Below are positions 3,301 through 62,688 of a stretch of DNA of 64,000 bases, one piece after another. The stretch lies in NCBI GenBank assembly GCA_965230895.1, contig OZ246394.1, positions 101,879-165,878 on the forward strand. The letters run 5' to 3'. Numbering within the stretch: position 1 is the first letter of the stretch; each line of letters begins with the position of its first letter. The notes under the pieces were generated by a model. It worked only from the letters and a program-made list of their open reading frames with translations, had not been told where the DNA came from and did no database searches. This DNA is from an uncultured Gammaproteobacteria bacterium. Lineage in GTDB: Bacteria > Patescibacteriota > Microgenomatia > Levybacterales > UBA12049. Made by a program: the position numbers and the translations under genes.

Positions 3301-3801
3301 TTAATTACCACTCTCACTGCTAATATTTTCAATATCCTTTTGTACATCGTCAATTGCTGATCCACTTGCACCTGTATCAACAGAATCAATCTCATCTTGG
3401 ACACTTTGCGTAGGTGCTACTGTTGGAACCTCAGTTGGTTGTTGTTCAACAGTAGTTGTTGGAGTTACATTAGTCTGACCCATTGGGTTTTGGGTAAGAA
3501 GTAATGCTGCAGATGCTGCTAAAAGCACAACAAATACAACCGCAGCGACTATAATACCAACTTTATTGCTTTTCTTTGGTGGTGTACTTCCATCTGCTGG
3601 AGGGGTTGTTGGAGCAGCTGTTCCAGGAGCTGGATTTGGCGCAGGCGGTGGAGGAGTGCCTGGTGTTATTGGATTTGCAGGTGAAGGTGTTTGTGGCCCT
3701 GTTTGCGCTGGCGCTGGATTAGGGTTTTGTGTTGGATTTGGATTCTGATTGTTATTTTGATTCTGGTCCATATTATTGTGCTGCTGTCGGCATTGGATCA
3801 T
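3301..3801 (-). CDS. Pro/Thr/Asn-rich low-complexity membrane-anchored protein
   Basis: Single hydrophobic segment (KVGIIVAAVVFVVLLAASAALLL). The N-terminal half is an extreme P/T/N/Q low-complexity stretch. Confidence 0.45.
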   Translation of the reverse strand: MIQCRQQHNNMDQNQNNNQNPNPTQNPNPAPAQTGPQTPSPANPITPGTPPPPAPNPAPGTAAPTTPPADGSTPPKKSNKVGIIVAAVVFVVLLAASAALLLTQNPMGQTNVTPTTTVEQQPTEVPTVAPTQSVQDEIDSVDTGASGSAIDDVQKDIENISSESGN

Positions 3802-4600
3802 TTGTCGCAGTTGGTTGGGATTCGAGCTTCATCAACTCTATTGCAACTTGTTTTACTGCGTCTTTAGATATTTTAACCTTTTCATGAGTCGTTTGTAAAT
3901 CACTTTTTAATTGTCCAAAAACTTCTTTAAAGCTAGGCTTTAAATTTGCTTCATCAGTGACATTTGCGGTATATGTTTTTGCAGCTTGGACGGCGATTGC
4001 TGATTGCGCATTTGTGATTGCCGCTTTTGCGTCTGTAATTGCTTTTTCAACAGCAGCGGTATCTTTGCCCGAAGCTTTTTGTTCATTTGTCCTGTCGATT
4101 AGCTTATTCAAGATTTCTTGTAACTTTGTGATAGCTTCACTCATTTTTGTAGTCTGTGCTTGGTTTGATGCCGCAAGTTTAGTATCTATTGTTTCAGCTG
4201 ACATTTTCTTTTTTTCATCTCTGATTGCTGCAATCTTTGCTTTGAAAGCGTCTTTTTCTGCTTGCATTTGAGATTTCATAGCGTCTCGTTTTGATTGTAC
4301 TTCTTTCATAAATTCAGTTTTTTGTTGTTGTATGTCTACTTTCATCTGATTTCTCATATCTTGAACGTTCTGCTTCATATCCATACGGAATTCCATTGTT
4401 GAGGGCGTGTTTTGGCCTTGCATTGTCCTTGGTTCTCCTTGGAAAGGTCTTGTTTGTTTTTCAGGACTTCCTTCAGGCCGAGCTTCCATAGTATTCATTT
4501 GGGGATTTGGATTATAGTTTTGGATATTCTCTGCATAAACAGGAGAGGCGATAACTCCAAAAAGCGTGAGGATTGCAATAACAAGCAGGTTTCTTTGCAT
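3773..4600 (-). CDS. secreted coiled-coil/helical protein (signal peptide)
   Basis: N-terminal signal peptide (MQRNLLVIAILTLFGVIASPVYA). Lys/Glu/Gln-rich heptad-like sequence. Overlaps the start of the upstream gene by ~29 bp. Confidence 0.5.
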   Translation of the reverse strand: MQRNLLVIAILTLFGVIASPVYAENIQNYNPNPQMNTMEARPEGSPEKQTRPFQGEPRTMQGQNTPSTMEFRMDMKQNVQDMRNQMKVDIQQQKTEFMKEVQSKRDAMKSQMQAEKDAFKAKIAAIRDEKKKMSAETIDTKLAASNQAQTTKMSEAITKLQEILNKLIDRTNEQKASGKDTAAVEKAITDAKAAITNAQSAIAVQAAKTYTANVTDEANLKPSFKEVFGQLKSDLQTTHEKVKISKDAVKQVAIELMKLESQPTATNDPMPTAAQ

Positions 4601-4901: not shown

Positions 4902-6293
4902 ATGTCGATGGTTAAACAGCATAAGATTATCGGAACATTAGCCCCAATTTTTTCTCTTCGCAGTAATCATCAACCACTTCAAGATCATGGAACGTTTGAA
5001 ACAGGATTGTATTTTCTCGATTGGCTAAAAAAGACAAAGCAGAATGCTTGGCAAATACTTCCATTTAATGAAACCCAGCTTGAAAAAAACTCTGCTACAA
5101 AGCACGTACCATCTCCATATAAAGGATATGGTATTGGTCTAGCGCCCAAATATCTTTCTTCACATTTTGCAAAACAAAAACCAGATACACAGACAAAAAA
5201 TAAGTTTATCTCACAACATAAAAATTGGCTTGAAGACTATGCAATATTCTGTTCAATTAGAGATTTCTATGGAACTGATGATTGGCGACTTTGGGAAAAA
5301 CCATTACGTTTAAGAGAAAAAGGTGTATTAACGGAATGGGCAAAAAAACATAAAGCAGAAATTGACTATTATATAGTGCAACAATGGCAACTCCATGAAT
5401 CGTATAGACAACTTCACAATAAGGCAAAAGACTTAGAGATTTCTCTCATTGGTGATATACCATTTTACTTATCAATACAAAGTCCGTTAGTCTGGGCAAA
5501 CCAAAAAGCATTTCAAATAAATAAGAATGGTTCCTTATCGATTGTTTCAGGAATTCCCCAAACAGCAGGAACATATTTTGGGAGGCAAGTCTGGGGACAC
5601 CCTCTTTATAATTGGGAGCATAAAGATGAAGTGATGAAATTGTGGAAGCTTCGCTTGTGGTACAAATCTCTATTATTTGAAAATATCCGTATTGATCATG
5701 CCCGAGCGTTTTTCGATTATGGAGCAATCGATACGAATCATCCAGAGAATGATTCGTATCTTGATGGTCCAGGGGGAGATGTCCTCGAAGAATTAATTGC
5801 TTTTAGTCAACAAAATGCTATGTCAGTTTTTGTAGAAGACAGTGGAGATGGAACAGGTAAGTTACGAGAAAGCATGCATAAATTAGATATACCGGGAATA
5901 AAAATTTATTACTTTGCGATACATCCAAATGGTGAAGATGTAAATGCTAAATATGCTTTTATAAAAGAATACCCAGAGAATTGCGTTGCTTATACGACCA
6001 CACATGATACATTAACTCTTCTTGGGTATATGCAACTTCTTAATGAAGAAAAGAAGAGTAAGCTGGCGAAAGCTGCAGATATTGTATTTGTTTCAGATGA
6101 GCAAATGGCTGAAACATTGAGACATAAGGTTATTCATTCTCCCGCGAAGATAGTCATAATACCTATTCAAGATTGGTTACTCACAACAGATCGGATTAAT
6201 GTCCCGGGGACTGAAAAAGAGATAGGAGATACAAATTGGCGCTTTAAGTTAGCTCAGACAATTGAAGATTTACCCACAAATATTAACTCTTGA
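4902..6293 (+). CDS. malQ: 4-alpha-glucanotransferase (amylomaltase, GH77)
   Basis: GH77 hallmarks: GYGIGL near the N-terminus, LIGDIPFYLS, catalytic-region IRIDHARAF, and the general (beta/alpha)8 amylomaltase layout. 463 aa. Confidence 0.8.
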   Translation: MSMVKQHKIIGTLAPIFSLRSNHQPLQDHGTFETGLYFLDWLKKTKQNAWQILPFNETQLEKNSATKHVPSPYKGYGIGLAPKYLSSHFAKQKPDTQTKNKFISQHKNWLEDYAIFCSIRDFYGTDDWRLWEKPLRLREKGVLTEWAKKHKAEIDYYIVQQWQLHESYRQLHNKAKDLEISLIGDIPFYLSIQSPLVWANQKAFQINKNGSLSIVSGIPQTAGTYFGRQVWGHPLYNWEHKDEVMKLWKLRLWYKSLLFENIRIDHARAFFDYGAIDTNHPENDSYLDGPGGDVLEELIAFSQQNAMSVFVEDSGDGTGKLRESMHKLDIPGIKIYYFAIHPNGEDVNAKYAFIKEYPENCVAYTTTHDTLTLLGYMQLLNEEKKSKLAKAADIVFVSDEQMAETLRHKVIHSPAKIVIIPIQDWLLTTDRINVPGTEKEIGDTNWRFKLAQTIEDLPTNINS

Positions 6294-6329: not shown

Positions 6330-7673
6330 ATGACACAAAAAGAAGCGCTTGATATGTTAAAACTGGGGCACAATGTCTTCCTCACTGGACCTGCTGGTTC
6401 AGGCAAAACTTTTCTCCTCAATCAATACATACAATATCTAAAAGACAATAAAATTCCTGTAGGGATTACAGCATCTACTGGTATTGCATCAACACATATG
6501 GGTGGGACGACAATTCATAGTTGGTCGGGGATTGGGATACGGGATATTTTGCACGAGAAAGATATTTCTGATTTGATGAAGCGTCAGTATTTGCGCAATC
6601 GATTTAAGAAGACTCGAGTTTTGATCATTGATGAGATTTCAATGTTACATGCACATCGATTAGATTTGGTTGATGCTATTTGTCGAGTTTTCAAACAAAA
6701 CTCAATTCCGTTTGGAGGAATGCAAGTCATTATGTGTGGTGATTTCTTTCAACTACCACCAGTTGTAAAGCGTGAGAAGGGAGAGAATGCAGTACAGATT
6801 TCCGAAGAGTCTCAGTTCGTTACAAACTCAAATATATGGAACAATATGCAGCTTGAAATTTGTTATCTTGAGGAGCAACATCGGCAAGATGATAGAGCTT
6901 TCCTCAGAGTGCTTAATGACATTCGAAATAGCGAAGTGACGGAAATGACATACGAATATTTAGCAGAGCGATTGGATAAAGATACAAATGGATACGCTAA
7001 TCCGACAAGATTATTTACACATAATGCAGATGTCGATGCAATAAATAAAAAACATTTAGAAGAGCTTGATGGTGAAGAACATGAGTATATGATGAATTGG
7101 CGAGGCAGTTTTGGTTTAACTGAAGTTTTGAAAAAAAGCTGTTTGGCACCAGAGACATTAGTTCTGAAAAAAGGTGCACAAGTTATGTTTGTAAAAAATA
7201 ACTATGAAGAAGGGTATGTTAATGGAACTCTTGGAGAAGTGATTAACTTTGATAAAAATGATCTGCCGATTGTCAGAACATTTGATGGATCAGAGATAAC
7301 GGTTCGTCAATCTGATTGGGAAGTGAAAGAAGATGATCGTGAAGTCGCGGCAATTTCACAGCTACCGTTAAGACTCGCTTGGGCGATTACCGTGCACAAA
7401 AGTCAGGGGATGAGCTTGGACGCAGCGGAAATTGATCTGAGTAGATCATTTATCCCAGGTATGGGGTACGTTGCGTTGTCTCGAGTGAGAAGTCTAGCAG
7501 GGCTCAAATTGATGGGACTCAATCAAATGGCATTGCAAGTAAATCAAGCCGTTGCAGAAATGGATCGTGAGTTTTTACAAAGATCGAATGAAGGAATTCT
7601 GTACCTAGCAAAATTAGATAAAGAGAAAAAAGCACAAAAGCAAATAGATTTTCTTCAATACTTAAAAAGCTAA
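6330..7673 (+). CDS. PIF1/RecD-like ATP-dependent DNA helicase (AAA_30 + UvrD_C-like)
   Basis: Walker A LTGPAGSGKTFLL, Walker B VLIIDEISM, and the motif near the C-terminus AITVHKSQGMSLD typical of PIF1/RecD/TraA helicases. Confidence 0.75.
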   Translation: MTQKEALDMLKLGHNVFLTGPAGSGKTFLLNQYIQYLKDNKIPVGITASTGIASTHMGGTTIHSWSGIGIRDILHEKDISDLMKRQYLRNRFKKTRVLIIDEISMLHAHRLDLVDAICRVFKQNSIPFGGMQVIMCGDFFQLPPVVKREKGENAVQISEESQFVTNSNIWNNMQLEICYLEEQHRQDDRAFLRVLNDIRNSEVTEMTYEYLAERLDKDTNGYANPTRLFTHNADVDAINKKHLEELDGEEHEYMMNWRGSFGLTEVLKKSCLAPETLVLKKGAQVMFVKNNYEEGYVNGTLGEVINFDKNDLPIVRTFDGSEITVRQSDWEVKEDDREVAAISQLPLRLAWAITVHKSQGMSLDAAEIDLSRSFIPGMGYVALSRVRSLAGLKLMGLNQMALQVNQAVAEMDREFLQRSNEGILYLAKLDKEKKAQKQIDFLQYLKS

Positions 7674-28615: not shown

Positions 28616-29320
28616 ATGGAAGAGATACATACAAAAATTATTGCTACTATCGGGCCATCAACGTTAGAATTCAATACATTCCAAAAACTTATTGATGCTG
28701 GAATTGACTATATTCGTATTAATACTGCCTATGGTGATGAGTATCAGTATCAAACAATTCTTGATAATTTAGCGAAGGCAAATAAGCATAAAACGGTGAA
28801 GCCAATATTTGATTTAAAAGGAGAACAGATTATTCCATTTGCTCTTAGGAATAATGTTTATATGTACGCACTTTCATTCGCTGAGAATAAAGAGCAAATT
28901 GCAAAATATCGTTCGTTACTTCCTGAATCATTTCTCATTTCAAAGATAGAATCAAAAAGTGGAGTGGAGAACTTTGATGAAATATTACATGCATCTGACG
29001 GGATTATGATTGCGCGAGGAGATCTCGGCGTTGCTGAAACATTGGAGAAAGTTCCACCAATGCAAAAGGATTTTACAAATAAAGCAAAAGTGAAAGATAA
29101 GTTTCTTATCACCGCAACAGAAATGCTTTTGAGTATGGTCGATAATCCAGAGCCGACAAGAGCAGAAGTCTCTGATGTTGCAAATGCAGTTTTTGATAAT
29201 TCATCGGCAGTTATGCTTTCTGAAGAAACTGCAATTGGAAAGTATCCGATTGAAACAGTTATTATGATGAGGAAAATTATTGTTGAAGCCGAGAAATGGC
29301 AATACAGCCATCAGTATTAA
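28616..29320 (+). CDS. minimal pyruvate-kinase-like protein (A-domain barrel only; no B-lid or C-terminal allosteric domain)
   Basis: PK motifs in order: KIIATIGP, IRINTAYG, DLKGEQI, ALSF, KIES, MIARGDLGV, LITATEMLLSM, PTRAEVSDVANAV, MLSEETAIGKYP. Only 234 aa versus ~470 for canonical PK. Confidence 0.55.
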   Translation: MEEIHTKIIATIGPSTLEFNTFQKLIDAGIDYIRINTAYGDEYQYQTILDNLAKANKHKTVKPIFDLKGEQIIPFALRNNVYMYALSFAENKEQIAKYRSLLPESFLISKIESKSGVENFDEILHASDGIMIARGDLGVAETLEKVPPMQKDFTNKAKVKDKFLITATEMLLSMVDNPEPTRAEVSDVANAVFDNSSAVMLSEETAIGKYPIETVIMMRKIIVEAEKWQYSHQY

Positions 29321-31605: not shown

Positions 31606-32400
31606 ATGAATTCTGAACGTTTACGAAAACTTCCAAGAGAATATGTCCTGAGAAATGGTGATTCCATGCGCTATGATCCTGACAAGCATCTGCTTCCTGA
31701 TCGAGTATCTGAAATCCTTGGAGCGGTGGAACTACCAAGGATGATTTCTCAGTATCGATCGTCAGCTGGAGATCCTGAAAAACCTGTTCGGATACTTATC
31801 CCTGGGATTGGTCCAGGAACGCTTGCGAGTGGTTTGATTTCAGGTTTGGAACTCGATGATCCGAGTCGTACTTCTGCGAAAAATGTCAATATCGATGCTT
31901 TCGATATCAATCCTGATGCTGTGGTAACTGCACAGGCAAATATCGATGAACAATTGCAGAATAAATGGGGAGAGGATGGACCTGTGACGTTTCGTGTTTT
32001 CCAAGGGGATTGGAAAGGTGGAGCAGTTTGGGATACCCTTCGCGAGGAAGATTCATATACGCATGTTATTGTAAATCCGCCGTATGCATTCCGGGATGAT
32101 TTCCGTGAACAAGTGCTTTTGCCTGGATATGATACTGTGCCGGAAAATGCTTTATATGGGAGACGTAATGGGGGAGAACATTATTATGTTTTGGCGCAAG
32201 AGCTGCAAACGGTTTTGAGTGAGGAATCTGATGCTGGAGTCATCTTCCGTTTTTCTGATTCAAATTTCGCGACAAGTTCTGTGCCGAGGATTGTTGATAG
32301 ATACTTTGCGGATGAGGATTTCACCAAAGAATTCCACTCAGAACTCTTCGACACGGCATCAGAACGTTGGGGAGCTTTTGCTAGGATTAGGAGGAAGTAA
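31606..32400 (+). CDS. HemK/PrmC-family SAM-dependent (glutamine-N5) methyltransferase-like protein
   Basis: Motif order matches HemK: Gly-rich SAM loop ILIPGIGPGTLASGL; DAFDINPDAV (cf. avDiSpeAL); VIVNPPYAF (NPPY); ALYGRRNGGEHYY (cf. ALdGGeDGLdfY). Confidence 0.55.
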   Translation: MNSERLRKLPREYVLRNGDSMRYDPDKHLLPDRVSEILGAVELPRMISQYRSSAGDPEKPVRILIPGIGPGTLASGLISGLELDDPSRTSAKNVNIDAFDINPDAVVTAQANIDEQLQNKWGEDGPVTFRVFQGDWKGGAVWDTLREEDSYTHVIVNPPYAFRDDFREQVLLPGYDTVPENALYGRRNGGEHYYVLAQELQTVLSEESDAGVIFRFSDSNFATSSVPRIVDRYFADEDFTKEFHSELFDTASERWGAFARIRRK

Positions 32401-32479: not shown

Positions 32480-33796
32480 ATGGAAAAAAAATTGAAGTAT
32501 ATCATCGATTCTATACCAGATTTTGAAATTAGACTAAAAGCGGGTAAAAGAATATTAAAGAAACTTGAGAAATATACTGCAACTATTGAAAAAATTGAGA
32601 AAAAAGTGTTTACAGGTGGAGAAGGGCTTACTGCTCAGCTGGAAGAAGCAAAGAGAATCAATAAAGAAATTGCTGCATATTACACAGAAGCAAGCGAAAA
32701 CCTATCGACTCTAAAAGAAACAGTAAAGAGTATTGATTTGCTGAAAGAGGCTTTCGAAACTTCTTTGGAAACTACGAATACTTTGATAAGTAATGTAAAT
32801 GATCCTGAAACGGGAATTCAATCAAAGTTGAATGCTGCTAATGAAGATAAAAATGAGACTAGGAGTATCCTCTTGTCTGCTGAAAACACAAAAAAAGAAT
32901 TAGATACTAAAGTGGAATCTATTCAAGGACAGTTGCAAGAAATGGAACAACTTTATGATGATTTTATCGAAATAAAAACTAAAATTGATGACCCTACGAA
33001 CGGATTAATTAAGGTACTTTCTTCATCAACTGCAAAAAGAGATGAAATATTTGCAATAAAGAAAAAGGCAGATACTCTATTTGCTGATATTTTAAAAACT
33101 CGAGATGAATCTGTCGCGTTCACTACTGAAATTAAGAAGTACAAGGATGAGACAGAGCTTAATACTGAAATTATTCGAGCGTACGCGAAAGAGAGTGAAG
33201 AAAACAATAGTAAGATTGCACAAATATATGATATAGCAACAGGTAGGGGACTCGCGGGATCTTTTGATAAACGGAAAAAGGAGCTTTTACTGTCTGTTTG
33301 GATATGGGGCGCAGTTCTAGTTGTAAGCGTAGCTTCATATGTATTTGTTTTAATGTGGATTTATCACGAAACATTCCAGAAAGGGATCCCAAATATAGAT
33401 GTAGCAGCTTGGTATCGCCTAACCTTAACGTTACCTATTTTAGGTCTGATTGCATTTGCCGCATATCAGTATTCACGTGAGCGCAATTTTTTAGAAAAGT
33501 ATGCTTTTAAATCTGCAACTGCAGTTGCTCTAGAGTCATATACAAAACTTCTCACAGATAAGTTTTCAATGCATGAAACTAAGATTGTTAGATTTGTATT
33601 GAATGCAATGACAATGATATATAGAGAGCCTCACGACATTGAAAAGAAATATAAATTCAATTTTGGTATCAATAAAATCTTTAATCTTGGTGTAGAGGAA
33701 GATAAAATGGAGGAGATAACTGACTTTATTGAGAAATCAGTTGATGATGCAGTGGATATTAAAAATGAGAAGAATAAAGGAAAACCAACAAGATAA
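32480..33796 (+). CDS. coiled-coil protein with two central TM helices and a C-terminal domain, unknown function
   Basis: About 270 aa of K/E-rich heptad sequence, two TM helices (LLLSVWIWGAVLVVSVASYVFVLMWIY; LTLTLPILGLIAFAAYQY), then a ~110-aa C-terminal domain. Confidence 0.45.
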   Translation: MEKKLKYIIDSIPDFEIRLKAGKRILKKLEKYTATIEKIEKKVFTGGEGLTAQLEEAKRINKEIAAYYTEASENLSTLKETVKSIDLLKEAFETSLETTNTLISNVNDPETGIQSKLNAANEDKNETRSILLSAENTKKELDTKVESIQGQLQEMEQLYDDFIEIKTKIDDPTNGLIKVLSSSTAKRDEIFAIKKKADTLFADILKTRDESVAFTTEIKKYKDETELNTEIIRAYAKESEENNSKIAQIYDIATGRGLAGSFDKRKKELLLSVWIWGAVLVVSVASYVFVLMWIYHETFQKGIPNIDVAAWYRLTLTLPILGLIAFAAYQYSRERNFLEKYAFKSATAVALESYTKLLTDKFSMHETKIVRFVLNAMTMIYREPHDIEKKYKFNFGINKIFNLGVEEDKMEEITDFIEKSVDDAVDIKNEKNKGKPTR

Positions 33797-34993: not shown

Positions 34994-36637
34994 ATGCCTA
35001 TCGAACGATTTCGTCAAGGAGCAGAGCGAAGAAAACGCAAACATTTGATCGATTCTGCGCTTGCTCAAAAAGATGAACAATCTGGGTCCTCTTCAGTAGC
35101 GAGTGAACCTCAACAAGCTTCAGGAAAAGAAGCGCCATTCTTTTCTGGTAAACGTAAAGGAGTTATCTTAACGACAGCTCTGGGTGCAGCAGCAGTCTTT
35201 CTTGGTAACAAAGTATATCGAGATAAGGAAACAGGTGAATTCCAAAAAGAAGCGTTAGCAAAGTCAGTAAAGAAGGCTGCGACTATTGGTCCTGTTGAAG
35301 GATTGATCGGTGTTGCGGGTATTACAATCCGTGATCATCGAGAATTAACGCATCGCAGTGTTGAGCTTGCTCCGTGGTTGCAAAAGGTACTGGATTTTGA
35401 GCAACGTTCTTTGGGCGTCCGTGAACCATACACTTGGGCATCTGTGCATCGAATTCATCATGAAATGACAGATGCTTCCTTATATCCTTTCTACCTGGCG
35501 TACCATGCTGTCAAATCTGCTGAAGCAAATGGTGCTCCTGTAGCCCCTGAACATAAATTTAAAAATTTTGATCCATTTGTAGAGCATTTTGATTTGAAAA
35601 CAGTTATGGATATAGGAGAAAGTGCTGATGCTGTTGTCAAAAAACGTATGGGAGATCTCTACGAACCTCCAATATTTGATAATCCGGAACAAATTAAAGA
35701 CGTGATTGAAGCCGAAAAACCTTTGTATTGGTATCCTGATTACAGCAAGAAAAAAGGGAGAGACGAATATGAGCCAAATGATATTGCCAGAATTCTACTT
35801 ACTGACCCGCATTCTCCAGCATTAGTTCGTCGCGAAAATGGAGTGCAAGGTGTGGCAATGACAAATATAAGTCTCTATCAGACCGCTGCTGCAATGTTCC
35901 GACATTTTCCTGAGATAAAACCTGAAGATCTTCAACGACCAGAGGATTTCGATCCTACTTACCAAGAACGCCATAAAAATGATGCGAAGAAAACATTTTA
36001 TGCTGGTTTTGTAGGACAAGCTGCTGCAATGTATGTCGTAAATCGGGATTATACATGGAGAGGTGCAGGAAGAGCAGTTTTGGAAGGAGCAGCTATCAAT
36101 GGTCTCAGAGCAGCGACAGAATTAGTTGGAGGAAATGTCACAAATTCAGCTGGGCATATGGGAGATCCTGTCCAAACAGAACTTGCTCAAGCATTCTTAA
36201 ATAGGATTTATGATATAAAACTCAAGCCTGATGGATCAATATCTACAAATACAGTAGGTAAAGGAGTTGTCGGGAGAGTTGCAAGTTGGGCGACGCTTGA
36301 TGAAGTTGGTGGGCAAGAAGTCCATCATCGAGCGCCTTGGAAGGTACGATATACAGATGCAGAGGGAAGACAGGCCGTTGTCGAGGCTCCATGGGGAAGC
36401 TTCCTTGAGTATCTCGCCAAAAATGAACATGTCAGTGCAATTAACGAAGGTGCAGGATTTGCTGGTGAAGAAAATGATCGTCCTGATGTTGTACATCGTG
36501 CTGTACGAAAAATTCAAGATGCAAGAGCTGAGCAGTATCAAAGAGATTATCCTGATGGAGAACCTGAGGAAGAACCTCCACTTTCAGGTGGAATAAGTCG
36601 TCTTGGTAGAACTCTTTTTAGCCGATTCCGCAGATAA
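34994..36637 (+). CDS. Delta9-desaturase-family (acyl-CoA/acyl-lipid desaturase-like) di-iron His-box protein, atypical: reduced TM content and a large hydrophilic insertion
   Basis: Box 1 DHRELTHRS (cf. HRLWSHRS). Exactly 29 aa later, box 2 YTWASVHRIHHEM (cf. YEWARDHRAHHKF). Box 3 GGQEVHHRAPW (cf. GEGWHNYHHAFP). One clear TM (GVILTTALGAAAVFLG) before box 1. About 300 aa between boxes 2 and 3 versus ~130 in known enzymes. Confidence 0.55.
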   Translation: MPIERFRQGAERRKRKHLIDSALAQKDEQSGSSSVASEPQQASGKEAPFFSGKRKGVILTTALGAAAVFLGNKVYRDKETGEFQKEALAKSVKKAATIGPVEGLIGVAGITIRDHRELTHRSVELAPWLQKVLDFEQRSLGVREPYTWASVHRIHHEMTDASLYPFYLAYHAVKSAEANGAPVAPEHKFKNFDPFVEHFDLKTVMDIGESADAVVKKRMGDLYEPPIFDNPEQIKDVIEAEKPLYWYPDYSKKKGRDEYEPNDIARILLTDPHSPALVRRENGVQGVAMTNISLYQTAAAMFRHFPEIKPEDLQRPEDFDPTYQERHKNDAKKTFYAGFVGQAAAMYVVNRDYTWRGAGRAVLEGAAINGLRAATELVGGNVTNSAGHMGDPVQTELAQAFLNRIYDIKLKPDGSISTNTVGKGVVGRVASWATLDEVGGQEVHHRAPWKVRYTDAEGRQAVVEAPWGSFLEYLAKNEHVSAINEGAGFAGEENDRPDVVHRAVRKIQDARAEQYQRDYPDGEPEEEPPLSGGISRLGRTLFSRFRR

Positions 36638-48110: not shown

Positions 48111-49385
48111 CTATCTTTGTCCAGCTTTTGCAGCCATTTTAGTTCCAGCAATCGTTGCCACACTTGGCGCCGCAACAACTGCCGCAGCCGCAGCTGTTGC
48201 GGCTAGAAGGGCTACACCAAGAGCTTTCAAAAGAGTCTTAAGGAATCCTAATCTCTTTTTTTCATTTTCATCTCCATCCTTTTCAGCTTGTGCCATCTTG
48301 TCATCCAGTGAATCCGCCATTGCATTAGCAGCTGCGGCTGCACCTTCTGGGCCTGCGATATTTGCATTTACATTTGCGGCTTCAAGAACTGTTTTTACAT
48401 CTTCCACATACGCAGGATTTTCTGCTATTGTATCAAGCACAGATTTAAAATCTGTTCCAAGATCAGCTAATTCTTTTACATTCTCAGCTAATCGTTTCGT
48501 TGCTTGCTGTTCTGGCGTCAATTCAGAATCCGCCTTATTCTCAGTATCCGCAACTTCCTGGGCAATTTGTTCTGCTTCTGCATTTACTGTCGCAGGAGTA
48601 GCTTCTGGAGGAGGAGCAGAGTTATTTGTTGCTTCAACTGTTGCCCCTTGAGCTCTTTCATCAGCTGATGGTTCTTTGTATTGAGCTTGACCTTCCCAGT
48701 CTTTCCAATCTTTTTTCACTTGCTCAGCAGTTGCTTGTTCTCCTGTTTGGGGCGCTGGTGGTGTTTGCTCCGGTGCTTGAGGTGCTGTTGGTTGCGCCTG
48801 CTCTGCGGTTTGATTAGTTTGAGGTGCGGTGTCAGCTTGTTGCTTGAGCATATCCTCTGCGCCTTGAGATACTTGCTTTTCCATATCACTTAACGCCTTT
48901 TTGGCTGCTTCATTTCCACCATCTGCAAGGGCCTTGAGCTCTTCTGGAGTTTTGTTCATCATGTCATTGATTTGGTCTTGTTGAGCATCCAAGTTCTGAT
49001 TCTCTTGCGCAGGGGGTTGGTCACCTGGTTGCTCTGATCCTGACTCAGGCGGATTTGGATTTTCTACAGCTGGATTTGTTCCTTCTGGGGTAGTTTGTGC
49101 TGCACCTTGTTCCTTTTGCATCGTATCAACTAAATTATCACCTTGATTTAATTCATTTGCGAAATTTTTGACAGTATCTTCAATGTCTTGAGGGGTTTTT
49201 GCTGAATCTACAGTATTCTGTAAGTTTTCAGCTGCAGCAGATCCTGCATTTTGATTCTCTTGTCCGGCTGGATTTGTCGCTGGTGAGCCAGCTTCTACTT
49301 GTGGAGCAGCAGATGATTCAGGTTTTGAAACCGGAGGTGGAGTTGCTTCTGGTGTTGGTTGTGGCCCTGATGGCGCTTCAGCCAT
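48111..49385 (-). CDS. intrinsically disordered Ala/Gln/Pro/Glu-rich protein with C-terminal TM anchor
   Basis: About 390 aa of low-complexity sequence, then LGVALLAATAAAAAVVAAPSVATIAG. GC-richer than its surroundings. Translationally coupled (8-bp overlap) to the upstream 113-aa ORF. Confidence 0.5.
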   Translation of the reverse strand: MAEAPSGPQPTPEATPPPVSKPESSAAPQVEAGSPATNPAGQENQNAGSAAAENLQNTVDSAKTPQDIEDTVKNFANELNQGDNLVDTMQKEQGAAQTTPEGTNPAVENPNPPESGSEQPGDQPPAQENQNLDAQQDQINDMMNKTPEELKALADGGNEAAKKALSDMEKQVSQGAEDMLKQQADTAPQTNQTAEQAQPTAPQAPEQTPPAPQTGEQATAEQVKKDWKDWEGQAQYKEPSADERAQGATVEATNNSAPPPEATPATVNAEAEQIAQEVADTENKADSELTPEQQATKRLAENVKELADLGTDFKSVLDTIAENPAYVEDVKTVLEAANVNANIAGPEGAAAAANAMADSLDDKMAQAEKDGDENEKKRLGFLKTLLKALGVALLAATAAAAAVVAAPSVATIAGTKMAAKAGQR

Positions 49386-50855: not shown

Positions 50856-51629
50856 TTAACGAGTTGTTCGAACTGTAGGAGTTGGGGAAGTCGTCGTTGT
50901 TGCTGCAGAACTGGCTGTTGCAGCTGAGACATTAATTCGAGGATCTTTAGGAATTCCGATAAAGTCTACAAGTCTACTTGCAGCAATGACAGTTGCATCA
51001 GTTCGGCTAGCTGATCCCGCAAATGAAATTCTATCGCCAACTGCTATCTTTGAAAATCCATATTTAACCAAACCATCTTCAGGAGTATATGAAGAGAGCT
51101 TGGTTGTTGTTGCGATATCTACCTTTACTTCTTTTTGTTCCGGAGTCATTACTGTTAACTGGAAACCCTTTGCGTCAATTGCTGTTACAGCGCCACTATA
51201 AATGGTTGGAGTTGCGTAAGTATTGATATATCGAGCTAAGAGTCTTTTCGATTGTTTATTATAAATTCCTAAAACACTTATTTTTGTACCTTTCGTAATA
51301 TCTGAAATGCCGAAGTTTTTATTACCAGTTGATGCAAACTTTGTAATCTCATCCACATCAACAAAGCGGTTATTTCCTTCATTGTCTGTTAACGTGATTT
51401 GATTGCTTTTTACCTCTGCAACAGTTCCTATCAATCCTCGCTTCTCAACAAGATTTAACTCAGAAACTCTTGAAGCAATTTTTTCTTTCAATTGATTGAT
51501 CTGATTATCAAGCTTTTCTTTCACAGCTGCGTCGGTAGTAGTTGGAGCGGGTGTTGCGGTCGTTGCATATGCTTGTCCTGCTGAGAGGCCAAAGAAAACA
51601 ACTGTACTGATTATTAATGCTTTTTTCAT
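50856..51629 (-). CDS. secreted protein (signal peptide), unknown function
   Basis: N-terminal MKKALIISTVVFFGLSAGQAYA. Thr/Ala-rich C-terminal tail. Confidence 0.45.
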   Translation of the reverse strand: MKKALIISTVVFFGLSAGQAYATTATPAPTTTDAAVKEKLDNQINQLKEKIASRVSELNLVEKRGLIGTVAEVKSNQITLTDNEGNNRFVDVDEITKFASTGNKNFGISDITKGTKISVLGIYNKQSKRLLARYINTYATPTIYSGAVTAIDAKGFQLTVMTPEQKEVKVDIATTTKLSSYTPEDGLVKYGFSKIAVGDRISFAGSASRTDATVIAASRLVDFIGIPKDPRINVSAATASSAATTTTSPTPTVRTTR

Positions 51630-56152: not shown

Positions 56153-57244
56153 TTGCTTAGCATGAAAAAGACTCGTGTAGCTATCCTCTTTGGCGGTAAA
56201 TCTGCAGAGCATGAAGTTTCCCTCCAGTCTGCAAAAAGTATTATCGATGCTATCGATAAAGATAAATACGAAGTAATAAAAATTGGAATCGACAAGCAAG
56301 GTAAATGGCTCCTCAATGATCAAAGTGACTTTCTCCTCAATGCTGAGGATCCTAAATTAATCAGCTTAAATAATTCCAATAAAGAGCTTGCAGTCTTGCC
56401 AGGAGATGAAAGACAAATGGTTGGCCTGCATCAAGAAGAAGTGGGAAAAGTTGATGTCGTTTTTCCGGTTTTGCATGGCACACTTGGTGAAGATGGAGCA
56501 ATGCAGGGGTTACTTAAATTAATGGATGTAGCATTTGTAGGAGCAGATGTCTTGGGCTCAGCCGTAGGAATGGACAAAGATATAATGAAGCGTTTACTTC
56601 GTGATGCGGGGATACCAATTGGTAAATTTATTTCTTTAACAAAAGGAAATACGATTAGTTTTGCTGACGCGAAAGAGAAAGTTGGTGCACCAATGTTTGT
56701 TAAACCAGCGAATCAAGGATCCTCAGTTGGTGTCCACAAAGCACATGATGAAGTCGAGTTTGATAAAGCAATTGCAGATGCATTTCTTTATGATACAAAG
56801 ATTCTTATTGAAGAATTTATTGAAGGTCGTGAAATTGAATGTTCAGTTTTAGGAAATGAAGATCCACACTGTTCTGTTCCTGGAGAAATCATTCCGCACC
56901 ATGAATTTTATTCATATGAAGCAAAGTATATCGATGAAGATGGGGCAGGATTAAAAATACCAGCAGAACTATCAGAAAGTTTGGTGCATGAAATTCAAGA
57001 GATTGCTATCAAAACATTTATGACATTAAATTGTGAAGGAATGGCAAGAGTAGATTGTTTCTTAACAAAAGATAATAAAGTTTTTGTAAACGAAATTAAT
57101 ACAATTCCTGGTTTTACAAAAATTAGTATGTATCCAAAACTTTGGGAAGCAAGTGGTATATCTTATGCAGATTTAATTGATACGCTAATTCAATTAGCTA
57201 TTGCTCGACATGATCGCCAAAAAGGCTTGAAGACCTCATTCTAA
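56153..57244 (+). CDS. ddl: D-alanine--D-alanine ligase
   Basis: N-terminus VAILFGGKSAEHEVSLQSA. ATP-grasp motifs (FVKPANQGSSVG, EINTIPG). Confidence 0.9.
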   Translation: MLSMKKTRVAILFGGKSAEHEVSLQSAKSIIDAIDKDKYEVIKIGIDKQGKWLLNDQSDFLLNAEDPKLISLNNSNKELAVLPGDERQMVGLHQEEVGKVDVVFPVLHGTLGEDGAMQGLLKLMDVAFVGADVLGSAVGMDKDIMKRLLRDAGIPIGKFISLTKGNTISFADAKEKVGAPMFVKPANQGSSVGVHKAHDEVEFDKAIADAFLYDTKILIEEFIEGREIECSVLGNEDPHCSVPGEIIPHHEFYSYEAKYIDEDGAGLKIPAELSESLVHEIQEIAIKTFMTLNCEGMARVDCFLTKDNKVFVNEINTIPGFTKISMYPKLWEASGISYADLIDTLIQLAIARHDRQKGLKTSF

Positions 57245-61584: not shown

Positions 61585-61669
61585 TGCCGGGAGGGGGAGT
61601 CGAACCCCCACGAGGTATAATCCTCAAAGGTTTTTGAGACCTTCGTGTCTGCCATTCCACCACCCCGGC
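61585..61669 (-). tRNA. tRNA-Leu (anticodon CAA)
   Basis: The reverse complement folds as a cloverleaf: acceptor GCCGGGG/CCCGGCA, D-arm, anticodon stem AAGGT/ACCTT with loop CTCAAAA (anticodon CAA), a long variable arm (class II, Leu-type), and T-arm GGGGG-TTCGACT-CCCCC. No encoded CCA. Confidence 0.8.
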
Positions 61670-61725
61670 AAATTTGTTATTGTTCAACCTTGAAAATAAC
61701 GCTTTCCTATTATATACTGCATTGT

Positions 61726-62688
61726 ATGACTATTCAAGAAATATATGACCTCGCAATTGAAATGGCTATAAAAGCTGACCCACGCGGAGCAAGTTTCGTT
61801 AAAAAAAGACTCGAGAAAGCAAACAAAGAATATAAAGATCTCCCAGAAAAGAAGAAAAAATACTTTGATGTTGAAACCCTCACAAATCCATATTCAGATA
61901 CAAGAATGTATCACGGAAATCCAAAGCAACAGGTAAAAAAGATTTTGGCTGGAATCGATATCTCAAGCGCAGAAGTCTTACTCTTTGACCGACTGAATGA
62001 AAAAGGAAAGGGATTAGATCTCCTTATTGCGCATCATCCAGAAGGAATGGCATTGACAGCACTTCATGAAGTTATGGATCTGCAAACAGATATGTACGGA
62101 GTGAATGGAATGCCGCTTAATGTGTCTCATGCTTTGATGCAGGGACGAATGGTGGATGTACAACGAAAGATTCATCCAACTAATTATAATCAGGCAATTG
62201 ATACCGCAAAGCTTTTGGATGTACCTTTCATGTCACTTCATACAATTTGGGACAATCTCGGTAATCAATTTATTTTGGATTATATAAAGGGTAAAGATTA
62301 CGACACAGTTGGAGAAATCATGGAAGATTTGATGAAGATTCCTGAGTATATAGCAGCTACAAAAGAGAAGGCTGGTCCATTGGTTATTTCCGGAAGTGAA
62401 AAGAGTAGAGCAGGTAAAGTTGCTGTTTTCTATACTGGCGGGACAAATCCGGCAAAAGAAATTTATATCGAACTTGCAAAGACAGGTATTGGTACAATCA
62501 TTGATATGCATATGCCAGATGATGCAGTGAAAGAAATGAAGAAGCTTCATGTGAATGTCATCAATGCTGGACATATGTCGAGTGATTCAATCGGAGCAAA
62601 CCTCTTCTTTGACACTCTTGAAAAGAAGGGTGTAGACGTGGTAGCATGTTCTGGGTTCATCCGAGTTCCAGGAAAGGATCGAAAATAA
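61726..62688 (+). CDS. NIF3-family (YqfO/YbgI-like) dinuclear-metal-centre protein
   Basis: LLIAHHPEG (HHP motif) and C-terminal NAGHMSSDS metal-ligand region. The ATG at 61726 was chosen because the longer ORF-track model overlaps the tRNA. Confidence 0.5.
   Translation: MTIQEIYDLAIEMAIKADPRGASFVKKRLEKANKEYKDLPEKKKKYFDVETLTNPYSDTRMYHGNPKQQVKKILAGIDISSAEVLLFDRLNEKGKGLDLLIAHHPEGMALTALHEVMDLQTDMYGVNGMPLNVSHALMQGRMVDVQRKIHPTNYNQAIDTAKLLDVPFMSLHTIWDNLGNQFILDYIKGKDYDTVGEIMEDLMKIPEYIAATKEKAGPLVISGSEKSRAGKVAVFYTGGTNPAKEIYIELAKTGIGTIIDMHMPDDAVKEMKKLHVNVINAGHMSSDSIGANLFFDTLEKKGVDVVACSGFIRVPGKDRK

What the first reader, a model, noticed from the sequence alone, without database searches (positions are those of the whole stretch)
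28616..29320. A 234-aa pyruvate kinase consisting only of the catalytic barrel
What the sequence shows: the canonical PK motifs are all present in order (KIIATIGP, IRINTAYG, DLKGEQI, ALSF, KIES, MIARGDLGV, LITATEMLLSM, PTRAEVSDVANAV, MLSEETAIGKYP). However, the ~100-aa B (lid) domain that normally interrupts the barrel after the DTKGPEIR-like motif is missing, and so is the whole C-terminal effector domain. Canonical PKs are ~470 aa.

Inference: this is either a degraded, non-functional remnant or a minimal PK-like enzyme with altered substrate access and no allostery. Reduced-genome symbionts often keep glycolysis patchily, so which of these applies matters for the metabolic model.
Basis: partly seen in the sequence, partly recalled or inferred. 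Interest (0 to 1): 0.55.

Follow-up and report, generated by a model that had tools for sequence, protein, structure and literature searches.

The report
Natural barrel-only pyruvate kinase family
This 234-residue protein is not a broken gene: it belongs to a conserved family of stripped-down pyruvate kinases in ultra-small bacteria that keep the whole catalytic barrel but have no lid and no regulatory domain, and nobody has yet tested what it does.

Summary
Observation confirmed. ORF 28616-29320 (+) encodes a 234-aa protein that matches the pyruvate kinase (PK) barrel (Pfam PF00224, E=1e-59). About 105 residues of lid (B domain) are missing cleanly between strand 3 and helix 3, and there is no C domain. 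It is not an artefact or pseudogene. The identical protein was assembled from four sequencing runs. At least 120 database clusters of 219-300 aa (median 235) exist in CPR/Patescibacteria. dN/dS against an 88%-identical ortholog is about 0.04. All barrel catalytic residues are invariant in 122 family members. AlphaFold gives a closed eight-stranded barrel (pLDDT 94.7) that superposes on PK A domains (TM-score up to 0.93). The host is a Levybacteria-like CPR bacterium. Lid-less PKs arose at least three times: A-only forms, A+C forms and one fusion to a LOG-type domain. No separate lid or C-domain gene and no conserved neighbour was found. The most likely function is a minimal, unregulated PEP-to-pyruvate kinase with an open active site. 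Engineered lid-less PKs are a precedent. Activity, phosphoryl acceptor, oligomeric state and whether the genome also has a full-length PK are untested. I found no paper describing natural lid-less PKs. I rate it a new variant of a known kind, of moderate to high interest.

The parts
28616..29320 (+). Complete gene for the 234-aa A-domain-only pyruvate kinase homolog (stop codon 29318-29320)
   Evidence: ORF; PF00224 E=1e-59; identical protein in 4 independent assemblies; dN/dS 0.044 against the ortholog in L006; AF2 pLDDT 94.7, closed 8-stranded barrel; Foldseek TM 0.88-0.93 to PK A domains
28715..28732 (+). R34-I-N36-T-A38-Y39 = rabbit-muscle R72/N74/S76/H77 (phosphate-binding Arg, K+ ligands, adenine-pocket residue)
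   Evidence: R and N invariant in 122/122 family members; position 76 is S(58)/A(49); position 77 is Y in 121/122. The H77 adenine-pocket role is from PMC8835810
28811..28831 (+). Lid-deletion junction D66-L67-K68 | G69-E70-Q71-I72: the end of strand 3 joins directly to helix 3 where canonical PKs insert the ~100-aa B domain
   Evidence: PykF 69-173 has no counterpart; D66 invariant, K68 121/122; model has strand 62-67 and helix 70-78 at pLDDT ~96
28943..28951 (+). K110-I-E112 = catalytic Lys269 and Mg2+ ligand Glu271
   Evidence: Both invariant, 122/122
29012..29023 (+). A133-R134-G135-D136 = A292-R293-G294-D295 (PEP and Mg2+ binding)
   Evidence: All four invariant, 122/122
29117..29122 (+). 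T168-E169 = proton-donor Thr327 plus the Q328->E substitution
   Evidence: T and E invariant in the family. E328 is found in 22/23 lid-less versus 24/150 lidded sequences, and is shared with full-length CPR PKs
29213..29233 (+). M200-L-S202-E203-E204-T-A = MLS(G->E)ETA: S361 and E363 retained; E at position 362 is a signature of domain-reduced PKs
   Evidence: Invariant in the family. E362 frequency: A-only 19/19, A+C 3/4, A+B 7/17, full-length 11/128
29246..29317 (+). Long C-terminal helix 8 (residues 211-231) ending in the conserved EAEKW motif; the protein stops where the C domain would begin
   Evidence: Helix 211-231 in the model; A225 invariant, E224/E226/W228 at >=90%; no PF02887 hit

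Best explanation
The gene encodes a functional, minimal, non-allosteric enzyme of the pyruvate kinase type. It consists of the (beta/alpha)8 A domain alone. The barrel binds PEP and Mg2+ with the canonical residues and most probably still transfers the phosphoryl group to a nucleoside diphosphate, then protonates enolpyruvate to give pyruvate (Thr327/Ser361/Glu363 relay). It would do this on a permanently open active site, because the lid and its nucleotide contacts (R119, K206, D177) and hinge residue 117 are gone. With no C domain it cannot respond to sugar-phosphate or AMP effectors, so it would be constitutive. Shown here: homology, a clean domain excision, conservation, purifying selection, a complete fold, stand-alone gene organisation, and repeated independent lid loss in ultra-small-genome lineages. 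Inferred, not shown: catalytic activity, the phosphoryl acceptor, rate, cation requirement and oligomeric state.
For: 1. It is real. The identical protein occurs in four independent assemblies. An ortholog of the same length sits in the same gene neighbourhood on a 1.32-Mb contig.
2. It is a family. The best 120 hit clusters are 219-300 aa (median 235) at 59-90% identity, from Woesebacteria, Microgenomates, Saccharimonadales and Patescibacteria bins. More distant A-only forms of 221-267 aa occur in Nealsonbacteria, Shapirobacteria, CPR3, Paceibacterota and Woesearchaeota-labelled bins.
3. It is under selection. dN/dS is 0.044, against 0.026-0.040 for the neighbouring transporter genes.
4. The chemistry is kept. 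R72, N74, D112, K269, E271, A292-R293-G294-D295, T327, S361 and E363 are invariant in 122/122 sequences. R72 and K269 act on the phosphoryl group, so their invariance argues that PEP phosphate chemistry is retained.
5. An aromatic residue is kept at the adenine-pocket position (H77->Y, 121/122).
6. The AF2 model is a closed 8-stranded barrel (pLDDT 94.7, pTM 0.91) with TM 0.88-0.93 to PK A domains. The matches include 7QDN, human liver PK with the B domain deleted.
7. Lid loss recurred. P0183 (A+C) groups with full-length Saccharibacteria PKs at 100/100 bootstraps and P0130 (A+C) with full-length P0151 at 83/100, while all lid-less forms together get 0/100. Repeated retention after loss argues that the lid-less enzyme is useful.
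8. Precedent: the title of Sugrue et al. [quoted passage not shown]
Against: The lid normally supplies R119 (beta-phosphate), K206 (ribose) and D177 (a water on the nucleotide Mg2+), and the hinge supplies residue 117, which sets K+ dependence (PMC8835810). All four are absent. From my memory of its abstract, the engineered lid-less E. coli enzyme keeps only low activity; I could not read that paper. An open site could favour hydrolysis of PEP over transfer to ADP. The protein scores below the curated equivalog cut-off (TIGR01064: 261.6 bits against 306.4). The K+ ligand S76 is Ala in this protein. No enolase or other glycolytic gene lies in the 64-kb window. Whether the genome also has a full-length PK could not be tested. 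There are no expression or activity data.
Confidence: 0.55

Rival explanations
1. Neofunctionalised PEP-using enzyme. The barrel still binds PEP and Mg2+ but passes the phosphoryl group to water (a PEP phosphatase) or to an acceptor other than ADP (another nucleotide or a small molecule), because the nucleotide-clamping lid is gone.
For: Loss of R119, K206, D177 and residue 117. Family-specific fixed changes near the active site: H77->Y, Q328->E, G362->E. A subclade is fused to a LOG/SLOG-type nucleotide-binding domain. In one relative (L009) the gene sits beside phosphoribosyltransferase, nucleoside phosphorylase and NUDIX genes.
Against: PEP hydrolysis would waste one of the few ATP-yielding steps open to an energy-poor symbiont. 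An aromatic residue is kept at the adenine-pocket position. Q328E also occurs in full-length CPR PKs, and E362 occurs in lidded PKs, so these changes do not define a new chemistry. No conserved neighbour points to another substrate.
Confidence: 0.2
2. The lid is supplied in trans. The barrel works as a normal PK only in complex with another protein, or with a neighbouring subunit of its own oligomer, that caps the active site and provides the nucleotide contacts.
For: The LOG-domain fusion in P0122 and P0102 shows that the barrel's C-terminus tolerates an attached nucleotide-binding domain. Canonical PKs oligomerise through A-A interfaces, which the barrel could retain.
Against: No B- or C-domain fragment lies within about 10 kb in any of 13 lid-less loci, and no neighbour family recurs across lineages (contexts). 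The closest unfused relative of the fusion has no LOG gene next door.
Confidence: 0.08
3. A nucleotide-independent side activity has become the function: oxaloacetate decarboxylase or pyruvate enolisation, which the PK active site can catalyse without ADP (my own knowledge of PK side reactions).
For: These reactions need only the barrel's Mg2+/pyruvate site and the proton relay, all of which is retained. There are weak, sub-threshold similarities to HpcH/HpaI aldolases of the same superfamily.
Against: R72 and K269, which act on the phosphoryl group, are invariant in 122/122 sequences, which is unexpected if no phosphate is handled. The HpcH/HpaI hit is 18 bits against a 25-bit cut-off, while PK scores 203 bits.
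Confidence: 0.07
4. Non-functional remnant, pseudogene, or assembly or frameshift artefact of a full-length PK.
For: The length is half that of canonical PKs. It scores below the TIGR01064 cut-off. One relative is labelled 'hypothetical protein' by NCBI (P0017).
Against: The identical ORF was assembled from four runs. Hundreds of relatives share the same length. dN/dS is 0.044. Catalytic residues are invariant. No B/C remnants occur in any frame. The barrel model is confident and complete.
Confidence: 0.01

Closest known systems
Canonical bacterial pyruvate kinase (E. coli PykF, 470 aa; G. stearothermophilus PK, PDB 2E28)
   Same: Homologous (beta/alpha)8 A domain: 42-45% identity over the barrel, with the same PEP, Mg2+ and proton-relay residues in the same order.
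   Different: Lacks the ~105-aa B/lid domain, including the G-P-E-I-R hinge, R119, D177 and K206. Lacks the ~125-aa C/effector domain. Carries Y77, E328 and E362.
Engineered lid-deleted PKs: human liver PK with the B domain deleted (PDB 7QDN and the 5SC8 series) and E. coli PykF 'TIM+Reg' (Sugrue et al. 2020)
   Same: The barrel lacks the lid. The AF2 model superposes on 7QDN with TM 0.93 normalised to the query and rmsd 1.7 A. The 2020 paper's title says the lid is not essential for catalysis.
   Different: Those are laboratory constructs that keep the C domain and the tetramer. This is a natural, selected protein that also lacks the C domain.
Natural lid-less A+C PKs found here (P0130, P0162, P0183, P0197; 349-387 aa)
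   Same: Lid excised at the same place between strand 3 and helix 3. Found among the same ultra-small-genome relatives. E362 in 3 of 4.
   Different: They keep PF02887 (the C domain). They arose independently of the window's clade (bootstraps 100 and 83 with full-length sisters).
Naturally C-less PKs (A+B, ~320-350 aa; NCBIfam NF005234/PRK06739 type; 'can lack the C domain' in PMC10176505)
   Same: No effector domain. E362 is enriched (7/17).
   Different: They retain the lid. The window protein scores 147.5 bits against a 564-bit cut-off for NF005234.

Membership tests
Pyruvate kinase (EC 2.7.1.40; Pfam PF00224 + PF02887; TIGR01064) | Homologous (beta/alpha)8 A-domain barrel | tested here: met
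   PF00224 202.8 bits against a cut-off of 30; PDB PKs at E=1e-45; AF2 barrel with Foldseek TM 0.88-0.93
Pyruvate kinase (EC 2.7.1.40; Pfam PF00224 + PF02887; TIGR01064) | A-domain catalytic residues R72, N74, D112, K269, E271, D295, T327, S361, E363 | tested here: met
   All present in the window protein and invariant in 122/122 family members
Pyruvate kinase (EC 2.7.1.40; Pfam PF00224 + PF02887; TIGR01064) | B (lid) domain between strand 3 and helix 3, carrying the nucleotide contacts R119, D177 and K206 and the hinge residue 117 | tested here: not met
   PykF 69-173 has no counterpart; gaps at these positions in all 122 members; residue roles from PMC8835810
Pyruvate kinase (EC 2.7.1.40; Pfam PF00224 + PF02887; TIGR01064) | C-terminal alpha/beta effector domain (PF02887). 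Not universal: C-less PKs are known. | tested here: not met
   No PF02887 hit; the protein ends at about PykF 345; no C-domain fragment nearby
Pyruvate kinase (EC 2.7.1.40; Pfam PF00224 + PF02887; TIGR01064) | Score above the curated equivalog threshold | tested here: not met
   TIGR01064: 261.6 bits against 306.4; NF004491: 261.7 against 432
Pyruvate kinase (EC 2.7.1.40; Pfam PF00224 + PF02887; TIGR01064) | Catalyses PEP + ADP -> pyruvate + ATP | not testable with these tools
   Needs a recombinant enzyme assay or genetic complementation
HpcH/HpaI aldolase / citrate lyase beta (PF03328), same PEP/pyruvate barrel superfamily | Profile score above the gathering threshold | tested here: not met
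   18 bits against a cut-off of 25, over residues 104-143 only; aldolase equivalogs at E=0.014-0.16
C-less A+B pyruvate kinase (NCBIfam NF005234 / PRK06739) | Barrel plus lid, no C domain; profile score above cut-off | tested here: not met
   147.5 bits against 564; the lid is absent

The most novel reading that the evidence does not exclude
Barrel-only proteins of 221-267 aa are the smallest natural pyruvate kinases. On this reading they are catalytically competent without lid or effector domain, they arose repeatedly by clean lid excision in CPR bacteria and DPANN-labelled archaea, and substitutions such as E362, K76 and Y77 compensate for the lost lid contacts. If so, they may be the PEP-to-pyruvate ATP-yielding step in lineages where HMM thresholds currently score PK as absent or ambiguous.
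Probability: 0.45. Interest if true: 0.75.

Novelty: new variant of a known kind. Interest (0 to 1): 0.6.

Why it matters
1. Enzymology. The lid is usually presented as the element that closes over the substrates and supplies nucleotide contacts. A large natural family under selection that lacks it would show what the bare TIM barrel can do, and would be a ready-made minimal scaffold.
2. Metabolic models of CPR and DPANN. PK is one of the few substrate-level ATP-yielding steps these organisms could have. Surveys report it as patchy, in about a third of CPR genomes (Jaffe et al. preprint). These short proteins fall below curated equivalog cut-offs and are labelled inconsistently as 'pyruvate kinase' or 'hypothetical protein'. 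Their status therefore changes whether lower glycolysis is called complete.
3. Evolution. At least three independent lid losses, plus C-domain loss, form a natural series of domain reduction during genome streamlining.

Tried and rejected
- Assembly artefact or frameshift: rejected. The ORF is identical in four assemblies, and there are no B/C fragments in any frame of the window.
- Split gene or trans-encoded lid or C domain: tblastn of B and C domains from four PKs against 13 lid-less loci found nothing. The best hit was E=0.31.
- Conserved partner gene: contexts differ between lineages. Neighbour clustering found only ABC/MacB synteny within Microgenomates.
- Weak PykF hit at 56474-56884 (E=0.039): it lies inside D-Ala-D-Ala ligase, so it is chance.
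- 'The ancestor was a K+-independent PK in which lid closure is dispensable': rejected. The nearest lidded relatives carry D-[IV]-K-G-P-E, the E117 type.
- 'E362 is specific to lid loss': only partly true. It is also enriched in C-less A+B forms.
- Promoter and terminator scan: a TTGACG-17-TACTAT site ends 9 nt before the ATG, but the number of sites does not exceed shuffled controls, and no terminator was found.
- The MarR pair in the dN/dS script used wrong coordinates (22% identity) and should be ignored.
A Biopython BLOSUM bootstrap timed out and was redone with Kimura distances. Sugrue et al. 2020 and the Schormann 2019 review are not held. The closed genome Ch65 could not be linked to any held locus. 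The AF2 tool returns no coordinates, so the geometry of E203, A38 and Y39 could not be examined.
- Literature: six searches for natural lid-less or truncated PKs in CPR or DPANN found no description.

Full report

Yes. Pfam assigns it to the PK barrel family PF00224 (E=9.7e-60). The match is split into two stretches, and there is no hit to the C-terminal domain family PF02887. Against solved structures, residues 5-80 align to residues 4-81 of G. stearothermophilus PK (2E28), and residues 68-227 align to residues 174-338 (E=1.8e-45).

In a family alignment that includes E. coli PykF (sequence taken from NC_000913), PykF residues 69-173 have no counterpart, and the protein ends near PykF residue 345. 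So the B/lid domain (about 105 aa) and the C domain (about 125 aa) are both absent.

One detail needs correcting. 'DLKGEQI' is not a surviving DTKGPEIR motif. Only D66 and K68 correspond to it. The G-P-E-I-R hinge is deleted, and G69-E70-Q71 are unconserved residues that lead into helix 3.

**2. Artefact or pseudogene?**

No, for five reasons.
- The identical protein was assembled independently from four sequencing runs.
- tblastn with full-length PykF finds no B- or C-domain remnant anywhere in the 64-kb window, in any frame. The only other weak hit (E=0.039 at 56.5 kb) lies inside D-Ala-D-Ala ligase.
- The next gene, on the opposite strand, ends 2 bp after the stop codon, so there is no room for a lost C domain.
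- An 88%-identical ortholog of exactly 234 aa sits in the same MarR / RND-adaptor / ABC / MacB neighbourhood on a 294-kb contig and on a 1.32-Mb contig.
- Nei-Gojobori dN/dS between the two orthologs is 0.044 (dN 0.080; dS 1.83, near saturation, so the ratio is approximate). The three neighbouring transporter genes give 0.026-0.040.

**3. A conserved family.**

A search of 5.8 billion protein clusters returned 7,778 PK-family hits. The best 120 clusters are 219-300 aa (median 235) at 59-90% identity. Where sources name them, the names are Woesebacteria, Microgenomates, Saccharimonadales and Patescibacteria. Most are labelled 'pyruvate kinase' and one is labelled 'hypothetical protein'.

In 122 family members every A-domain catalytic position is invariant: R72, N74, D112, K269, E271, A292-R293-G294-D295, T327, S361 and E363 (rabbit-muscle numbering). 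Family-specific fixed changes are H77->Y (121/122), Q328->E and G362->E. The K+ ligand S76 is Ser or Ala, and it is Ala in this protein.

A profile search of 1.84 billion 50%-identity representatives, together with a scan of one genome per GTDB species, found more distant A-only forms of 221-267 aa. They occur in Saccharibacteria, Nealsonbacteria, Shapirobacteria, CPR3 and Paceibacterota, and in two bins labelled Woesearchaeota.

**4. Structure.**

AlphaFold2 with an 83-sequence family alignment gives mean pLDDT 94.7 and pTM 0.91. The model is a complete eight-stranded beta/alpha barrel. Strand 3 (residues 62-67) connects to helix 3 (70-78) through a two-residue turn where the lid would be inserted. 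A long helix 8 (211-231) ends the protein.

Foldseek against the PDB returns only pyruvate kinases at the top, with TM-scores of 0.88-0.93 normalised to the query and rmsd 1.4-3 A. Among them is 7QDN, 'human liver pyruvate kinase from which the B domain has been deleted'. The C-terminal motif EAEKW (A225 invariant; E224, E226 and W228 at 90% or more) is conserved, so the helix that would normally abut the C domain is itself constrained.

**5. Organism and context.**

The window's DnaB is 100% identical to a protein on a 1.61-Mb NCBI contig. Its nearest named relatives are Candidatus Levybacteria at 90% and 83% identity.

The window otherwise carries ordinary housekeeping genes: DnaB, HisRS, a release factor, Ddl, Alr, a Mur ligase, S6-SSB-S18, YchF and EF-P. 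It also has a GH77 4-alpha-glucanotransferase. It has no other glycolytic gene and no second PK.

Gene neighbourhoods of distant family members differ from one another. Clustering the neighbours across 13 lid-less loci gave no recurrent partner. tblastn with B and C domains from four PKs found no separately encoded fragment within about 10 kb. The gene stands alone.

**6. Lid loss is recurrent.**

Several lid-less representatives keep a C domain (PF00224 + PF02887): P0130, P0162, P0183 and P0197, at 349-387 aa.

In a bootstrapped NJ tree on the 234 barrel columns:
- P0183 groups with full-length Saccharibacteria PKs (100/100).
- P0130 groups with a full-length PK (83/100).
- The hypothesis that all lid-less forms are monophyletic gets 0/100.

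So the lid was lost at least three times. This is NJ on short sequences and needs ML confirmation.

Two short-linker forms (L034 and P0186) keep G-P-R and about 20 residues in place of the lid, a less complete excision.

Three positions co-vary with architecture:

| Position | A | A+C | A+B | A+B+C |
|---|---|---|---|---|
| E362 | 19/19 | 3/4 | 7/17 | 11/128 |
| K76 (the K+ ligand position) | 10/19 | 3/4 | 0/17 | 3/128 |
| Y77 | 14/19 | 1/4 | 0/17 | 5/128 |

These counts are not phylogenetically corrected, and the sample is biased towards the PKs most similar to the query.

**7. How it most likely works.**

According to PMC8835810, the lid of rabbit muscle PK contributes R119 (to the beta-phosphate), K206 (to the ribose hydroxyls) and D177 (to a water on the nucleotide Mg2+). 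The hinge carries residue 117, which sets K+ dependence. The adenine pocket is bounded by H77 of the A domain.

The mini-PK has lost all four lid and hinge residues. It keeps every barrel residue that binds PEP, Mg2+ and the phosphoryl group, keeps the proton relay, and keeps an aromatic residue at position 77.

My best-supported reading is a constitutive, non-allosteric PK-type enzyme that converts PEP to pyruvate and still phosphorylates a nucleoside diphosphate, on an open and probably slower active site (confidence 0.55). The invariance of R72 and K269 argues that phosphoryl chemistry is retained. Recurrent independent lid loss followed by retention argues that the lid-less state is useful. 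The title of Sugrue et al. 2020 provides an engineered precedent; as I recall its abstract, residual activity was low, but I could not read the paper.

Two hypotheses remain untested. E362 might replace the D177 carboxylate. K76, in the clades that have it, might place a positive charge in the monovalent-cation site. The nearest lidded relatives are of the E117 (K+-dependent) type, so cation dependence cannot be predicted.

**8. Rival explanations.**

- A changed phosphoryl acceptor or a PEP phosphatase (0.20).
- A lid supplied in trans or by an oligomer partner (0.08). No conserved partner was found.
- A nucleotide-independent activity such as oxaloacetate decarboxylation (0.07). The invariant R72 and K269 argue against this.
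- A remnant or artefact (0.01).

I could not test whether these genomes also encode a full-length PK or enolase. That is the most important open computational question.

**9. Comparison with what is known, and novelty.**

By homology and active site it is a pyruvate kinase derivative. By architecture it fails two of the classical features (lid and C domain) and falls below the curated equivalog cut-offs (TIGR01064: 261.6 bits against 306.4). I therefore file it as a new architectural variant, not a canonical member.

C-less PKs are known (PMC10176505), and lid-less PKs have been engineered (7QDN; Sugrue 2020). Six full-text searches found no description of natural lid-less or barrel-only PKs. 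CPR metabolic surveys treat PK only as present or absent, and as patchy. The searchable library omits most subscription journals, so prior description cannot be excluded.

**10. Verdict.**

The 'degraded remnant' reading is refuted, and the 'minimal PK-like enzyme without allostery' reading is supported but not proven. Novelty: a new variant of a known kind. Interest: 0.6.

Noticed in passing
L094:1376-2722 (P0122, 448 aa); also P0102 (300 aa, cut at a contig end): A barrel-only PK fused at its C-terminus to a LOG / 'Lysine_decarbox' SLOG-type nucleotide-binding domain (PF03641, PF18306). Two diverged sequences from different sources share the same junction, so the fusion looks real. The closest unfused relative (P0082, L095) has no LOG gene adjacent.
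   Followed up: partly
P0130, P0162, P0183, P0197 (349-387 aa; representatives): Natural lid-less PKs that keep the C domain (PF00224 + PF02887). They are natural counterparts of the engineered delta-B constructs. At least two arose independently of the window's clade (bootstraps 100 and 83 with full-length sisters).
   Followed up: partly
L017:5867-6577 and L018:9956-10663: Barrel-only PKs (221-230 aa, 44-48% identical to the window protein) on contigs labelled Candidatus Woesearchaeota archaeon (DPANN). With P0125, P0128 and P0161 they form a sister clade to the CPR family. Either the gene moved between CPR and DPANN, or the bins are mislabelled.
   Followed up: no
L012 (CAZDOJ010000001.1, 1.32 Mb): The record is titled 'uncultured Gammaproteobacteria bacterium', yet it carries the 88%-identical mini-PK. 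The same protein (P0003) sits in window-like synteny on Logan contigs (L006), and the window's markers are Levybacteria-like. The taxonomic label is probably wrong. L056 carries the same label.
   Followed up: partly
P0137, P0145, L056, L019 (A-only, 259-261 aa): A second A-only clade (bootstrap 86). Three members (P0137, P0145, L056) carry a conserved C-terminal tail after helix 8 (consensus roughly W-x-K/R-x-G-H-x-x-I-F-S-x-K-x-E-K-F-x-F-G) of unknown role.
   Followed up: no
window 4902-6293 (+) and 6330-7673 (+): A GH77 4-alpha-glucanotransferase (amylomaltase) lies next to a PIF1-like helicase. The glucanotransferase indicates some alpha-glucan handling in this small genome.
   Followed up: no
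window 32480-33796, 34994-36637, 48111-49385(-), 31606-32400, 50856-51629(-), 3773-4600(-): Six sizeable ORFs (256-547 aa) have no Pfam family at E<=1e-5. The 547-aa ORF between YchF and ribosomal protein S6 has a no-Pfam counterpart of 537 aa at the same position in the relative L006, so it is conserved but unannotated.
   Followed up: no
window 61585-61669 (-) and 61645-62688 (+): An 85-nt tRNA on the minus strand overlaps the mechanically listed GTG start of the NIF3-like ORF. Gene calls on a contig with the same genes (L092) give 320 aa, not 347, so the ORF's true start is probably downstream of the tRNA.
   Followed up: partly
L009:7007-9973, upstream of its mini-PK: In a Microgenomates relative on a 1.13-Mb contig, the mini-PK follows a phosphoribosyltransferase, a PNP/UDP-type nucleoside phosphorylase and an unannotated 538-aa protein, with several NUDIX genes nearby. 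This may link it to nucleotide salvage feeding lower glycolysis, but the arrangement is not seen in other lineages.
   Followed up: no
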